Source of the DNA: Escherichia coli
GTDB taxonomy: Bacteria; Pseudomonadota; Gammaproteobacteria; Enterobacterales; Enterobacteriaceae
DNA length: 20,473 nt
Reading direction: 5' to 3' (one strand)
Assembly (NCBI RefSeq): GCF_003334315.1
Contig: NZ_QOWR01000068.1
Every line of letters starts with the position of its first letter. Positions within the stretch are counted from its first letter, which is position 1. Below are positions 1-1,584 of the stretch, in pieces. The position numbers and the translations under genes are program-made. The notes below the pieces were generated by a model. That model saw nothing but the letters and a program-made list of their open reading frames with translations. It did no database searches and had not been told where the DNA came from.

Positions 1-149
1 GGTTGAGAAGCGGTGTAAGTGAACTGCAGTTGCCATGTTTTACGGCAGTGAGAGCAGAGATAGCGCTGATGTCCGGCGGTGCTTTTGCCGTTACGCACCA
101 CCCCGTCAGTAGCTGAACAGGAGGGACAGCTGATAGAAACAGAAGCCAC
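1..149 (-). CDS. insA: IS1 protein InsA, N-terminal part (partial, runs off the window)
   Basis: The reverse complement from the GTG at 149-147 translates to [49 protein letters not shown], the InsA N-terminus with its CxxC...CxxC zinc-finger motif. Confidence 0.9.
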
Positions 150-204
150 TGGAGCACCTAAAAAACACCATCATACACTAAATCAGTAAGTTGGCAGCAT
201 CACC
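1..204 (-). mobile_element. IS1 insertion sequence, left-end portion (IRL plus insA 5' region), truncated by the window edge
   Basis: The reverse complement of 182-204 is GGTGATGCTGCCAACTTACTGAT, the IS1 terminal inverted repeat. The rest of 1-204 matches the IS1 left end as I remember it, with one apparent substitution at about 170 (cctAaaaaa versus cctCaaaaa). The element continues leftward out of the window, so the other end and the target-site duplication cannot be seen. Confidence 0.93.
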
Positions 205-326: not shown

Positions 327-1265
327 TTATTGGTTTTTCACGTCAAGATTAATTATTGTTGATGCATTTTTCGAAGGTGAGGGGAGACGAATGCCACTCA
401 ACCTGTTAATGATGGATTCGCAGAATACAATGTCATTATCTTTCTGACTTGCATCAAATGCAGATATGCCACCATAACCGTCTGCGAATATCCTGGCATG
501 ACACACCGCATCATTAGCACCATCGATTCCGGAAATGGCTTTTGATAATGCATCCGTAATTATTTTAGTGTCATGCACTAATTCCTTCTTGCTTCGTCCA
601 TCCTGAGTGGCGAATGAGTATTCTTTCTTTACAGTTTCATCACAATATAATGCTGCACTTTCAGGTGAGTACATTCTCAGTTCCAGCCAGCTTGAGCTTG
701 CACTCGAACCGGCGCTATTCACCCATGTCATTAACATGCTTTCTTTTTTGGCTACCCTGACGACGTACACATCCGTAGTATTCGGACCACCCGCTATGGT
801 TGAGCAGATTTTATGAAACTCAATGCCTCTCTTCGTGAGTGATGAGGCAGGATTGAATGTACAATTCTCATTCAGATAACCACCACATTTTGATGGTGCC
901 ATTGATATATATTCAGGGCCGAACTTGGCTGGCATTGACGTTCCAAGGGAAACCTCCCAGCCTAATTCTTTTTTCCTTTTCTCCAACACTGTTGATTTAA
1001 CGCCCATAACATTGATGCGAGCAAATCCAGTGCGGAGTGACATTCCGGAAGCTGTTTGCGTAACACCGTCAGCCCAAACAATATCTGAGTTTGACTGCCA
1101 GTCCCACGACAAGCCGTGACCAGCATCCGGCATTGCTGAATAAACAAAATCACCCAACTCAGAACTGGGCCTTCCCGAAAGAGATTCGGGGGAAATATCT
1201 TCAGCGGATATAGCGTAAGGCGGGAGCATCGCAACCATAACAGATAACAGTATTAATCCTTTCAT
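327..1265 (-). CDS. hypothetical secreted protein (312 aa) with a TolA-domain-III-like C-terminus; function unknown
   Basis: The ORF is open over 327-1334. I prefer the ATG at 1265-1263 because it begins a Sec-type signal peptide, MKGLILLSVMVAMLPPYAISA|EDI, and an AGGA lies 10 nt upstream; the ATG at 1334 has neither. The mature protein has 7 Cys. The last 77 aa or so (CHARIFADGYGG...FCESIINRLSGIRLPSPS) resemble the TolA C-terminal domain pattern. I recognise no family for the N-terminal 230 aa or so. Confidence 0.65.
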   Translation of the reverse strand: MKGLILLSVMVAMLPPYAISAEDISPESLSGRPSSELGDFVYSAMPDAGHGLSWDWQSNSDIVWADGVTQTASGMSLRTGFARINVMGVKSTVLEKRKKELGWEVSLGTSMPAKFGPEYISMAPSKCGGYLNENCTFNPASSLTKRGIEFHKICSTIAGGPNTTDVYVVRVAKKESMLMTWVNSAGSSASSSWLELRMYSPESAALYCDETVKKEYSFATQDGRSKKELVHDTKIITDALSKAISGIDGANDAVCHARIFADGYGGISAFDASQKDNDIVFCESIINRLSGIRLPSPSKNASTIINLDVKNQ

Positions 1266-1584
1266 TTGAATCAGTTCCTGAAGCGAACATTCAGAACATT
1301 CAACAAGCCCAGTGAAGGCCGCAAGACATTTCAACCGTTAGGCGAACCAACCAGACTCAGTACATCCATATTCTGCGAGAACAAGGATGCCCACAAATCA
1401 CTGGATTCTCCCTTGGTTTATGTTGGTGCGCATAATGTATATTATGTTAAATCATGTCTGAGTGATGCGAAGTGCTTTTCTGGTAGTCGTTATTCGTTCA
1501 GGGTTCAAGAACTTAAGCCTCTCCTCTTTCATAATTGGCCTGTGCATGGAGAAATAGCCTGGTTATTCCCTGCCCCATGCTAAG

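What the first reader, a model, noticed from the sequence alone, without database searches (positions are those of the whole stretch)
327..1265. Orphan secreted protein with a TolA-domain-III-like C-terminus, between IS1 and the yneL remnant
This is the only gene in the window that I cannot place in a known family, and it sits in the accessory part next to an IS1 end. Seen directly: a 312-aa ORF with a Sec signal peptide and 7 Cys in the mature part. Its last 77 aa or so are ITDALSKAISGIDGANDAVCHARIFADGYGGISAFDASQKDNDIVFCESIINRLSGIRLPSPSKNASTIINLDVKNQ. This parallels the E. coli TolA C-terminal domain as I remember it (…YAGKTCTLRIKLAPDGMLLDIKPEGGDPALCQAALAAAKLAKIPKPPSQ…). Shared elements are C-x-x-R-I, then D-G, then a second Cys 25-27 residues after the first, then C-x9-10-(I/R)-(I/L)-P-x-P-(P/S). 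TolA domain III is the periplasmic hub used by Ff/CTX-type phage g3p and by group A colicins, and it contacts TolB, Pal and CpoB. A free periplasmic copy fused to an unknown 230-aa domain could act as a decoy that blocks phage or colicin entry, or as a modulator of Tol-Pal. That functional idea is speculation. The fold assignment is an inference from motif similarity only.
Basis: partly seen in the sequence, partly recalled or inferred. Interest (0 to 1): 0.68.

Follow-up and report, generated by a model that had tools for sequence, protein, structure and literature searches.

The report
TolA-mimic cargo gene on dif-integrated element
The gene is real and encodes a secreted two-domain protein whose tail copies the fold of TolA domain III, the envelope hub that filamentous phages and colicins use to enter cells, and it is carried on a small, apparently undescribed mobile element inserted at the chromosome's dif site.

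Summary
The ORF at window 327-1265 (- strand, 312 aa) is confirmed. It is intact and under purifying selection (dN/dS about 0.1 against Kluyvera orthologues).

The protein is not an orphan. Residues 22-208 belong to a large family of secreted proteins that Pfam does not cover (291 cluster representatives; phrog_24752).

The main correction concerns context. An exact E. coli dif site lies at 1425-1452. The gene is the first cargo gene of a 3.44-kb element bounded by dif and a conserved 30-bp dif-like site. The element encodes no recombinase, forms tandem arrays, and occurs at dif in E. coli (95 of 5426 genomes), Kluyvera, Yersinia and Serratia, and at plasmid Xer sites. That makes it an IMEX (integrative mobile element exploiting Xer).

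In E. coli its cargo slot holds secreted TolA-III proteins of three architectures.

The best functional guess is untested: a periplasmic TolA-III mimic that blocks Tol-dependent invaders, namely dif-integrating filamentous phages and group A colicins.

The parts
327..1265 (-). ORF312: complete gene for a 312-aa secreted two-domain protein (stop codon 327-329)
   Evidence: dN/dS is 0.097 against the Kluyvera orthologue. Present in 56 of 5426 complete E. coli genomes, always chromosomal.
1203..1265 (-). Signal peptide, residues 1-21, with predicted cleavage AISA|EDIS
   Evidence: Read from the sequence. The first ~5 codons and the upstream leader are shared with the other cargo variants.
642..1202 (-). 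N-terminal domain, residues 22-208: beta-rich, with 4 conserved Cys (C127, C135, C154, C208); member of a secreted-protein family that Pfam does not cover
591..641 (-). Linker, residues 209-225, low confidence and poorly conserved
   Evidence: pLDDT below 50 at residues 213-222. 47% identity to Kluyvera over this stretch.
330..590 (-). C-terminal domain, residues 226-312: divergent TolA domain III fold (alpha-beta-beta-alpha-beta) with the Cys pair C255/C282
205..309 (-). First 35 codons of the 119-aa membrane-protein gene (TM119), which follows ORF312 after 17 intervening bases; truncated here by IS1
   Evidence: The intact 119-aa gene is seen in L001, L002 and L006. The window copy reads ...IGTDNP and then runs into IS1. 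Two hydrophobic segments at about residues 12-32 and 48-68.
1..204 (.). End of an IS1 copy (terminal inverted repeat ending ...GGTGATGCTGCCAACTTACTGAT, read on the - strand). It is a secondary insertion that separates the visible part of the element from the rest.
   Evidence: Matches to related loci start at base 205, and bases 1-204 match all 5426 genomes many times over. IS1 is annotated at a similar position in H53. Recognition of the IS1 end sequence is from my own knowledge.
1266..1424 (-). Leader and presumed promoter region between dif and the cargo start codon, conserved among elements that carry different cargo
   Evidence: About 97-98% identical to L001 and L028, which carry other cargo genes, and recognisable in Yersinia and Serratia. 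The consensus scan found no sigma-70 match, so the promoter is inferred, not shown.
1425..1452 (+). Exact 28-bp E. coli dif site (GGTGCGCATAATGTATATTATGTTAAAT), which forms the right boundary of the element
   Evidence: 0 mismatches; 0 expected by chance. dif sequence as given in PMC3025954. The K-12 empty site has dif alone between hipA and yneL.

Best explanation
ORF312 encodes a soluble periplasmic protein with two disulfide-bonded domains. The N-terminal domain is a ~185-aa beta-rich domain from a widespread, unnamed family of secreted proteins found on phages, plasmids and mobile elements. The C-terminal domain is an ~87-aa divergent copy of TolA domain III.

[quoted passage not shown] The layout is: dif | leader | cargo | 119-aa membrane protein | ~810-bp non-coding stretch | 315-aa DNA-binding, homing-endonuclease-like protein | 30-bp dif-like site. 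In this strain IS1 has cut the element just downstream of ORF312.

Most likely mechanism (inferred): the free TolA-III mimic competes with host TolA-III for ligands that dock by beta-strand augmentation. These ligands are the N1 domain of g3p from filamentous phages, which in Enterobacterales themselves integrate at dif, and the TolA boxes of group A colicins. Cells carrying the element would then be protected against these Tol-dependent invaders.

Status of each step:
- Shown: the gene is real and constrained; the fold and homology; periplasmic targeting signals; the element's boundaries, distribution and cargo variation.
- Inferred: Xer dependence, expression, ligand binding and the exclusion phenotype.
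For: Fold and homology.

Constraint: dN/dS is 0.064 for the N-domain and 0.131 for the TolA-like domain.

Element:
- Exact dif at window 1425-1452.
- K-12 has dif alone at the same spot.
- The unit is bounded by dif and GGTGCGCATAATGTGTTGAACATGTTAAAT in E. coli, Kluyvera, Yersinia and Serratia, with tandem copies separated by the 30-bp site.
- On an IncF plasmid it is bounded by a plasmid Xer-type site and the 30-bp site.
- None of its proteins matches a recombinase.

The cargo slot repeatedly holds secreted TolA-III proteins:
- A 220-aa protein (Pfam TolA 32.9 bits) in 27 genomes.
- A 363-aa protein in E. coli C and on plasmid pEk72-1 (Pfam TolA 43 bits).
- ORF312 in 56 genomes.

Phage links:
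- phrog_24752.
- A distant two-domain homologue lies directly after a CI-like repressor, and another lies beside KwaA.
- Family members are fused to the Imm_superinfect domain.
- A lambdoid phage carries a small TolA-III gene between the Q gene and the lysis genes, where accessory genes commonly sit.

Background:
- g3p N1, colicin A and TolB all bind TolA-III by strand augmentation (PMC7391070).
- Filamentous phages of E. coli and Yersinia integrate at dif as tandem repeats (PMC7307601, PMC4266046).
- Periplasmic export of TolA-III alone makes E. coli tolerant to group A colicins and leaky (Levengood-Freyermuth et al. 1993, recalled from memory; the paper could not be opened).
Against: - There is no direct evidence of expression, ligand binding or any phenotype.
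- The domain is only about 17-18% identical to E. coli TolA-III. Pfam's TolA model misses it, and so does a profile of the four closest sequences, so the ligand-binding surfaces may not be kept.
- In the model the short helix that precedes the last strand in TolA is absent (against the alignment).
- The Yersinia, Serratia and Enterobacter versions of the element carry cargo with no TolA-III domain, so TolA mimicry is not essential to the element.
- PADLOC has no hit.
- No filamentous prophage was seen next to the element in the loci inspected.
- The role of the well-conserved N-domain is unexplained by a pure decoy model.
Confidence: 0.4

Rival explanations
1. Tol-Pal modulator. The TolA-III mimic binds the TolB N-terminus (or CpoB) and so dampens Tol-Pal. 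This would change outer-membrane stability, vesiculation or septal Pal capture for the benefit of the element, for example through release or uptake of DNA or particles, rather than blocking invaders.
For: Same fold evidence. TolB binds TolA-III by strand augmentation with low affinity (PMC7391070). Exported TolA-III causes leakiness (Levengood-Freyermuth 1993, from memory). The gene is co-inherited with a small inner-membrane protein: both are 76% identical between E. coli and Kluyvera and both are 100% identical between the two Kluyvera loci L006 and L007, whereas the 315-aa gene differs.
Against: A constitutive tol-like defect is costly, yet the gene is kept under purifying selection in commensal and livestock E. 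coli. Nothing ties the element to vesicles or particle release. This reading is not exclusive of the decoy reading.
Confidence: 0.2
2. Targeting module. The conserved N-terminal domain is the active part, as a binding or enzymatic domain acting on an envelope component or a phage receptor. The TolA-III-like tail only docks it onto a partner with a TolA-box or TonB-box-like strand, such as TolB, an outer-membrane protein, or the 119-aa partner.
For: The N-domain is the more conserved half (dN/dS 0.064, 85% identity). It mostly occurs on its own or fused to other periplasmic adaptor domains: PDZ, Sel1, PG_binding_1, Imm_superinfect. It has invariant Trp, Arg and Glu positions.
Confidence: 0.2
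3. The element is a satellite of a filamentous phage, and ORF312 acts in the element's own transmission, for instance by sequestering helper-phage g3p or by aiding particle assembly or uptake.
For: It is a dif-integrated element forming tandem arrays of 3.4 kb, like TLCphi or RS1 satellites (PMC6744903, PMC5357621). It has a conserved ~810-bp non-coding stretch that could be an origin or packaging signal.
Against: No inovirus gene (pI/Zot, pII/HUH, pVIII, pIII) or DUF3653/XafT was detected in its proteins. The 315-aa protein's only phage relatives are ~30% identical homing-endonuclease-like proteins of tailed phages. Close copies sit on conjugative plasmids, which gives a simpler transfer route.
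Confidence: 0.08
4. Non-functional leftover ORF in a decaying island.
For: IS1 has destroyed the next gene in this strain. Some genomes carry truncated or split copies.
Against: dS is 1.6 with dN/dS 0.097 over 311 codons. The ORF is intact in 55 of 56 genomes at 98-100% identity. The AF2 model is confident. The two-domain architecture is conserved at 30% identity.
Confidence: 0.03

Closest known systems
TolA domain III (E. coli TolA residues ~325-421; Pfam PF06519; PDB 1TOL, 2X9A, 1S62, 3QDR)
   Different: About 17-18% identity, below Pfam's threshold. There is no transmembrane domain I and no long helical domain II, so it cannot be coupled to TolQR. It is fused to an unrelated N-terminal domain. 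In the model it lacks the short helix before the last strand. It is encoded on a mobile element.
Free TolA-III proteins annotated 'cell envelope integrity TolA C-terminal domain-containing protein': WP_016239973.1 (220 aa), WP_052167191.1 (363 aa, E. coli C), and the 142-aa 'TolA protein' of lambdoid phage mEp460
   Same: They are secreted or lipid-anchored proteins carrying a TolA-III domain without the TolQR-coupling parts, and they are encoded on mobile DNA. The first two occupy exactly the same cargo slot of the same dif element. All are uncharacterised.
   Different: They pass Pfam's TolA threshold (32.9 and 43 bits) and belong to a separate TolA-III lineage; BLASTP finds no similarity to ORF312. 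Their N-terminal parts are unrelated to ORF312's.
IMEXs (integrative mobile elements exploiting Xer): CTXphi, VGJphi, TLCphi, the gonococcal genetic island, EludIMEX/EcloIMEX, and the CUS-1, Ypfphi and UPphi prophages
   Same: Integration at dif with an intact dif regenerated on one side and a degenerate dif-like site on the other. No recombinase of its own. Tandem arrays. Accessory cargo next to dif.
   Different: It is only 3.4 kb. It has no inovirus genes, no DUF3653/XafT and no resistance gene. Its backbone is a 315-aa homing-endonuclease-like DNA-binding protein plus a 119-aa membrane protein. The 30-bp site has two extra bases between the Xer arms. It is also found at plasmid Xer sites.
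Entry blockade through the Tol pathway by g3p (periplasmic g3p N-terminal domains make cells resistant to Ff phages and tolerant to colicins; Boeke, Model and Zinder 1982, from memory)
   Same: The proposed outcome is the same: the TolA-III to ligand interaction is titrated out in the periplasm by a mobile-element protein.
   Different: The mirror-image strategy: g3p occupies host TolA, whereas a TolA-III mimic would occupy the invader's TolA-binding domain. Not demonstrated for ORF312.
pdif modules of Acinetobacter plasmids
   Same: Small gene modules bounded by XerC/XerD sites. An N-domain homologue lies about 100 bp from a pdif site on plasmid NZ_CP118894.1.
   Different: The sites and backbone are different. 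The association was seen in one plasmid only and was not analysed further.

Membership tests
TolA C-terminal domain (Pfam PF06519, TolA-III fold) | The sequence scores above the Pfam gathering threshold (25 bits) | tested here: not met
   0 Pfam hits at E<=10 for ORF312 or its tail. 7 of the 13 homologous tails do hit PF06519 (best E 3e-5).
TolA C-terminal domain (Pfam PF06519, TolA-III fold) | Profile-level homology to TolA-III | tested here: met
   The 13-tail profile against the PDB: TolA at E 2.3e-5, with the top 4 hits all TolA. Own-clade tails against distant tails: 97%, E 6.7e-11. Own-clade tails against the TolA set: 64%, E 6.7e-5. Distant tails against the TolA set: 96.7%. The own-clade profile alone against the PDB finds nothing.
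TolA C-terminal domain (Pfam PF06519, TolA-III fold) | Three-stranded sheet packed on helices, superposable on solved TolA-III | tested here: met
TolA C-terminal domain (Pfam PF06519, TolA-III fold) | Conserved cysteine pair | tested here: met
   C255 and C282 align with the two TolA cysteines in every alignment. Disulfide formation itself was not tested.
TolA orthologue (Tol-Pal energy transducer) | N-terminal transmembrane anchor that couples to TolQR, plus a long helical domain II | tested here: not met
   The N-terminus reads as a cleavable signal peptide. Residues 22-208 form a beta-rich globular domain. The gene is not in a tolQRA operon. Conclusion: a TolA-III mimic, not a TolA.
TolA-III functional mimic or decoy | Binds g3p N1, colicin TolA boxes or the TolB N-terminus | not testable with these tools
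   Needs binding assays or complex prediction. No multimer prediction tool was available.
IMEX (integrative mobile element exploiting Xer) | Inserted at chromosomal dif, with an intact dif on one side and a dif-like hybrid site on the other, and an empty site in relatives | tested here: met
   K-12 has dif alone. The same pair of sites is found in E. coli, Kluyvera, Yersinia and Serratia.
IMEX (integrative mobile element exploiting Xer) | No integrase of its own | tested here: met
   Pfam, NCBIfam, PHROGs and PADLOC scans of the encoded proteins show no tyrosine or serine recombinase. No ORF in the 810-bp gap is conserved between genera.
IMEX (integrative mobile element exploiting Xer) | Tandem arrays and occurrence in different replicons and species | tested here: met
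   Two copies in ET220 and in Serratia. Up to 6 places per E. coli genome. 36 or more plasmids. On the plasmid examined it is bounded by a plasmid Xer-type site.
IMEX (integrative mobile element exploiting Xer) | Integration and excision depend on XerC/XerD | not testable with these tools
   Genetic test needed.
TLCphi-type IMEX | Encodes a DUF3653 (XafT-like) Xer activation factor | tested here: not met
   No DUF3653 hit in any encoded protein at E<=1.
Filamentous phage (Inoviridae) prophage | Morphogenesis and replication genes (pI/Zot, pII, pIII, pVIII) | tested here: not met
   The unit has only three genes. Their PHROG and Pfam hits are an unknown-function family and 'HNH endonuclease' families. 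tblastn of ORF312 against 50,697 phage records finds no match.
Unnamed secreted-domain family (phrog_24752 and relatives) | ~180-aa domain with four conserved Cys and W/R/E signature positions | tested here: met
   E 1.7e-20 to phrog_24752. 291 representatives. C127, C135, C154 and C208, plus W54, W64, R78, R83, E100 and W103, are at least 90% conserved.
Known anti-phage defence systems (PADLOC-DB) | Match to a catalogued defence protein model | tested here: not met
   No relevant hit for any of the element's proteins.

The most novel reading that the evidence does not exclude
A family of miniature Xer-dependent elements is spread across Enterobacterales chromosomes and conjugative plasmids. 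It has a dedicated expression slot next to dif that has captured periplasmic TolA-domain-III mimics in three architectures from at least two lineages. These mimics act as entry blockers against Tol-dependent invaders. The targets include the filamentous phages that compete for the very same dif site, which would make this a new kind of exclusion mechanism (receptor-hub mimicry). The conserved 315-aa protein would be a new, non-DUF3653 factor that drives Xer recombination at the 30-bp site.
Probability: 0.3. Interest if true: 0.82.

Novelty: new variant of a known kind. Interest (0 to 1): 0.72.

Why it matters
TolA domain III is the periplasmic hub that Ff and CTX-type filamentous phages and group A colicins must engage to enter Gram-negative cells. 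No natural soluble TolA-III decoy has been described in the literature I could search.

Here such proteins are the recurrent cargo of a small element that uses the same chromosomal site (dif) as the filamentous phages of E. coli and Yersinia. That suggests direct competition between dif-integrating elements.

The element itself gives the Xer field a new and very compact system. It is 3.4 kb with three genes, a conserved 30-bp site, no XafT, and copies on both chromosomes and conjugative plasmids.

It is directly testable, because the laboratory strain E. coli C carries one variant. If the decoy idea fails, what remains is a well-defined new periplasmic domain family and a new IMEX family, both currently annotated only as 'hypothetical protein'.

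Tried and rejected
- Direct family scans of ORF312 gave nothing useful: Pfam, NCBIfam (only a spurious 13-bit cytochrome hit), PADLOC.
- BLASTP of ORF312 against the 220-aa TolA-C protein of the alternative allele showed no similarity.
- A profile of the four closest tails against PDB sequences found nothing. The link to TolA needs the more distant two-domain homologues.
- The first AF2 run, with 5 sequences, gave pLDDT 45. It was usable only for the C-terminal part. It was rerun with 145 sequences.
- tblastn of ORF312 against phage genomes found no match. Foldseek against BFVD found nothing below E 0.02. The afdb50 library was unavailable.
With the close-clade alignment, the GTDB species set returned one locus, an evidently mis-binned E. 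coli contig. IMG/VR returned one truncated Kluyvera remnant.
- In the 810-bp gap, Rfam found nothing and no ORF is conserved between genera.
- The sigma-70 consensus scan found no promoter between dif and the start codon.
- I first read the downstream 119-aa gene plus a displaced 3' fragment as a toxin-immunity or polymorphic-toxin layout. I rejected this: there is no toxin domain, and the cargo swaps occur after a shared leader, not at a C-terminal toxin junction.
- I rejected the idea that IS1 mobilised the gene. Matches in other genomes start exactly at the IS1 end, and IS1 is absent from most copies.
- Literature searches found no paper for the 30-bp site, for IMEX plus TolA, or for phage 'TolA-like' proteins. 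Levengood-Freyermuth 1993 could not be opened.
Full report
**1. Observation**

A longer TTG-initiated reading (335 aa) exists. However, the ATG is preceded by a GGA-containing Shine-Dalgarno-like stretch and starts a typical Sec signal peptide, MKGLILLSVMVAMLPPYAISA|EDIS (read from the sequence). There are six cysteines, not seven. Pfam, NCBIfam and PADLOC give nothing for the whole protein.

**2. The gene is real and constrained**

- 56 of 5426 complete E. coli genomes carry it, always on the chromosome. 55 carry it at full length, and all copies are at least 95% identical.
- The closest non-E. coli homologues are from Kluyvera (76% identity) and from two metagenomic sequences (65%).
- Against the Kluyvera orthologue, dS is 1.6 and dN/dS is 0.097. 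By region, dN/dS is 0.064 for residues 22-208 and 0.131 for residues 226-312.

**3. N-terminal domain (residues 22-208)**

- An exhaustive profile search found 291 cluster representatives at E<=1e-3 and 206 at E<=1e-10. Nearly all of the match lies in residues ~20-205.
- Most relatives are ~210-240-aa proteins. Some carry extra domains.
- None of 145 members gets a Pfam hit over this domain. The Pfam hits that do appear are on fused parts: TolA_C (3), Sel1, PDZ, PG_binding_1, Imm_superinfect, DnaJ and zinc ribbon.
- PHROGs holds the domain as phrog_24752, function unknown (E 1.7e-20).
- Homologues sit on Acinetobacter plasmids and on a plasmid that also carries a phage terminase gene.
- Four cysteines and several Trp, Arg and Glu positions are at least 90% conserved.
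- With the deep alignment AF2 models this domain at pLDDT 94-98.
- I therefore call it a member of an unnamed periplasmic domain family of unknown activity.

**4. C-terminal domain (residues 226-312)**

- (a) Thirteen family members share a ~100-aa tail after the last N-domain cysteine. Seven of these tails hit Pfam TolA PF06519 individually, although ours does not.
- (b) A profile of the 13 tails hits E. coli TolA C-terminal domain chains in the PDB at E 2.3e-5 to 1.1e-4. These are the top four hits, and both cysteines and the (I/L)P motif align.
- (c) The link does not rest only on the distant members.
  - The four-sequence profile of our clade aligns to the nine distant tails with 97% probability (E 6.7e-11).
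  - It aligns to a set of bona fide TolA-III sequences (host TolA, the phage mEp460 TolA, and the 220-aa and 363-aa cargo proteins) with 64% probability (E 6.7e-5).
  - The distant tails align to that set with 96.7% probability.
  - On its own, the four-sequence profile finds nothing in the PDB.
- (d) Structure.
  - The second AF2 model (mean pLDDT 86.8; 77-88 over this domain) has the order helix 226-244, strand 254-261, strand 266-271, helix 279-289, strand 303-310.
  - Even the first, poor model put TolA-III on top in Foldseek.
- Caveats.
  - The structure is predicted.
  - Identity to TolA-III is about 17-18%.
  - The short helix that precedes the last strand in TolA appears to be missing.
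  - The protein is not a TolA orthologue. It has no membrane anchor and no helical domain II, so it cannot be energised by TolQR.

**5. What the locus is**

- Comparing with other genomes, the window is collinear with K-12 from base 1381 onward (yneL, ydeT and so on).
- In K-12 the interval between hipA and yneL contains the chromosomal dif site and nothing else.
- The window has an exact dif (GGTGCGCATAATGTATATTATGTTAAAT) at 1425-1452, which is 159 bp upstream of the ORF's start codon. The sequence identity is taken from PMC3025954.
- In strain ET220 two tandem 3441-bp units lie between hipA and dif. The 30-bp site GGTGCGCATAATGTGTTGAACATGTTAAAT lies between the two units and again at the hipA end of the array. 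It has the same XerC arm as dif, two extra bases between the arms, and an altered centre and XerD side. True dif lies at the yneL side.
- The same pair of sites bounds the homologous unit in Kluyvera, Yersinia and Serratia (tandem again in Serratia).
- The three Kluyvera contigs differ in flanking sequence immediately after the last base of dif.
- On IncF plasmid pEk72-1 the unit is bounded by a plasmid Xer-type site (GGTGCGCATAACAAAGATTATGTTAAAT) and the 30-bp site.
- Close copies of the backbone gene are on at least 36 Citrobacter, Klebsiella and Enterobacter plasmids.
- The unit encodes three proteins: the cargo, a 119-aa protein with two membrane segments, and a 315-aa protein. An ~810-bp stretch with no ORF conserved between genera and no Rfam hit lies between the last two.
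- The 315-aa protein matches only PHROG 'HNH endonuclease' families (E 3e-35). Its distant relatives in tailed phages are annotated as homing endonuclease or winged-helix proteins.
- No recombinase and no DUF3653 was detected.
- These are the defining features of an IMEX (PMC5357621, PMC6744903).
- The backbone gene is in 95 of 5426 complete E. coli genomes, at 132 places and up to six per genome.
- In the window, IS1 (bases 1-204) has cut the 119-aa gene after codon 35. The rest of the element lies beyond the window's left edge.

**6. The cargo slot**

- The leader between dif and the start codon, and the first ~5 codons (MKRLI...), are shared by elements whose downstream cargo differs.
- Cargo types seen:
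  - A 134-aa secreted protein, alone or with a 110-aa Cys-rich secreted protein (Yersinia, Serratia, Enterobacter).
  - The 134-aa protein plus a 220-aa protein, which is the 110-aa module extended by a Pfam-positive TolA_C domain (32.9 bits). This is found in 27 E. coli genomes, sometimes followed by a 3' remnant of ORF312.
  - A 363-aa secreted protein with a Lys/Ala-rich linker and TolA_C (43 bits), in E. coli C and on pEk72-1.
  - ORF312.
- The TolA-III domains of the 220-aa and 363-aa proteins resemble each other and are 26% identical to host TolA-III. ORF312's domain has no BLASTP-detectable similarity to that of the 220-aa protein.
- So TolA-III mimics of at least two lineages, in three architectures, occupy this one slot.
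- The element is mosaic. Between E. coli and Kluyvera locus L006, ORF312 and the 119-aa gene are 76% identical while the 315-aa gene is 96% identical. Between the Kluyvera loci L006 and L007 the pattern is reversed.

**7. Mechanism**

What is shown:
- A constrained gene for a secreted protein ending in a TolA-III fold.
- Its carriage on a Xer-type element at dif.

What follows from established knowledge:
- TolA-III is bound by g3p N1, colicin A and TolB through beta-strand augmentation (PMC7391070).
- Filamentous phages of E. coli, Yersinia and relatives integrate at dif, in tandem, and can superinfect and displace one another (PMC7307601, PMC4266046).
- TolA-III exported alone into the periplasm renders E. 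coli tolerant to group A colicins and leaky (Levengood-Freyermuth et al. 1993, from memory).

What I infer:
- ORF312 acts as a periplasmic TolA-III mimic that titrates the TolA-binding parts of incoming filamentous phages and/or colicins.

Supporting hints:
- The TolA-III theme recurs in the slot.
- The N-domain family has phage associations.
- A distant, membrane-anchored two-domain homologue lies immediately after a CI-type repressor, and another lies next to KwaA.
- Lambdoid phage mEp460 carries a TolA-III gene between Q and the lysis genes.

Points against:
- There is no functional evidence.
- The binding surfaces are very divergent.
- Non-TolA cargo occurs in other genera.
- The conserved N-domain is unexplained.

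I put the decoy reading at about 0.4. The main rivals are a Tol-Pal modulator (0.2) and a targeting-module reading in which the N-domain is the effector (0.2).

**8. Comparison and novelty**

- As a fold, this is a new and very divergent member of TolA_C.
- As a protein, the combination of a family not covered by Pfam with TolA-III and no anchor is undescribed.
- As a locus, it is an IMEX of a type I could not find in the searchable literature. The 30-bp site returns no paper, and neither does IMEX plus TolA.
- I cannot exclude that it appears in supplementary tables of IMEX surveys, or that it overlaps the 'three ORFs next to dif' noted for UPphi prophages.
- I rate it a new variant of known kinds: IMEX, and TolA-III domain proteins.
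- Interest is 0.72. The idea of receptor-hub mimicry carried by a dif-site competitor is surprising and directly testable, including in E. coli C.

Noticed in passing
L002 4369-5179 and 7811-8623; L006 9325-10152 (outside the window, to the left of the IS1): There is an ~810-bp stretch between the 119-aa and 315-aa genes of the element. It is moderately conserved from E. coli to Serratia. It has no ORF conserved across genera and no Rfam hit. It may be an origin, an operator region or an unknown RNA.
   Followed up: partly
L001 3986-4933; L002 6863-7810 (315-aa gene): The conserved backbone protein matches only PHROG 'HNH endonuclease' families. Its distant relatives carry PF22083 or are fused to thymidylate synthase. 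It has no DUF3653. It is a candidate for a new Xer-activation or replication factor. Orthologues 70-96% identical occur in Yersinia, Serratia, Enterobacter, Buttiauxella and Kluyvera, and on 36 or more plasmids.
   Followed up: partly
L028 6762-7853 (E. coli C, NZ_CP020543.1 2331205-2332296): The laboratory strain E. coli C carries the same dif element with a different cargo: a 363-aa secreted protein with a K/A-rich linker and a Pfam-positive TolA C-terminal domain. An ISSen4 copy sits between dif and its leader. This strain is a convenient experimental handle.
   Followed up: partly
L030 1459-1486 and 4683-4712 (Enterobacter kobei IncF plasmid pEk72-1): The element sits on a plasmid between a plasmid Xer-type site (dif arms with centre CAAAGA) and the 30-bp site. 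This indicates that it shuttles between plasmid multimer-resolution sites and chromosomal dif.
   Followed up: partly
window 1381-1424; L002 and L006 equivalents: About 44 bp inside the element, next to the XerC arm of dif, resemble the host sequence that flanks the XerC side of the empty dif site. This is seen in E. coli and, with different sequence, in Kluyvera. It is unexplained: possibly accessory sequence, or traces of past exchanges.
   Followed up: no
L014 3860-4288 (phage mEp460_ev081, LR597641.1 40533-40961): A lambdoid phage encodes a 142-aa 'TolA protein' between the Q antiterminator and the lysis genes. Its C-terminal ~96 residues are 54% identical to the host TolA C-terminal region. 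This is another free TolA-III on mobile DNA with no known role.
   Followed up: partly
L027 1274-2664 (Acinetobacter plasmid NZ_CP118894.1): An N-domain homologue (195 aa) and an adjacent 188-aa membrane-anchored protein lie about 100 bp from a pdif (XerC/XerD) site. The plasmid has four pdif sites. The domain family may also travel in pdif modules.
   Followed up: partly
L010 371-2101; L013 608-3213: Distant two-domain homologues (membrane-anchored N-domain plus TolA-III-like tail) lie directly downstream of a CI-like HTH_3/Peptidase_S24 repressor (P0009) and next to a KwaA gene (P0010). The contigs are short, so the context is incomplete.
   Followed up: partly
L015 (JARKOR010000214.1, labelled Candidatus Nanosynbacter MAG): The only hit in the GTDB species set is a contig 98-99% identical to the E. 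coli locus. It is almost certainly a mis-binned E. coli contig in a Saccharibacteria MAG.
   Followed up: partly
L001 6126-6566; proteins P0005, P0006, P0007: Several rearranged copies exist. One is a 3' remnant of ORF312 left behind the 220-aa gene. Others are ORF312 fused in frame to the 119-aa gene, and a chimera of the 134-aa protein with the ORF312 tail. These show frequent recombination within the cargo region.
   Followed up: partly
L029 (E. coli ECONIH5, NZ_CP026202.1 87809-103587): Next to the element there are further IS-interrupted islands, with FRG-domain and DUF6904 proteins and two site-specific integrases. A similar FRG/TPR gene set lies beside the Enterobacter copy (L023). The dif neighbourhood seems to accumulate several kinds of insert.
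   Followed up: no
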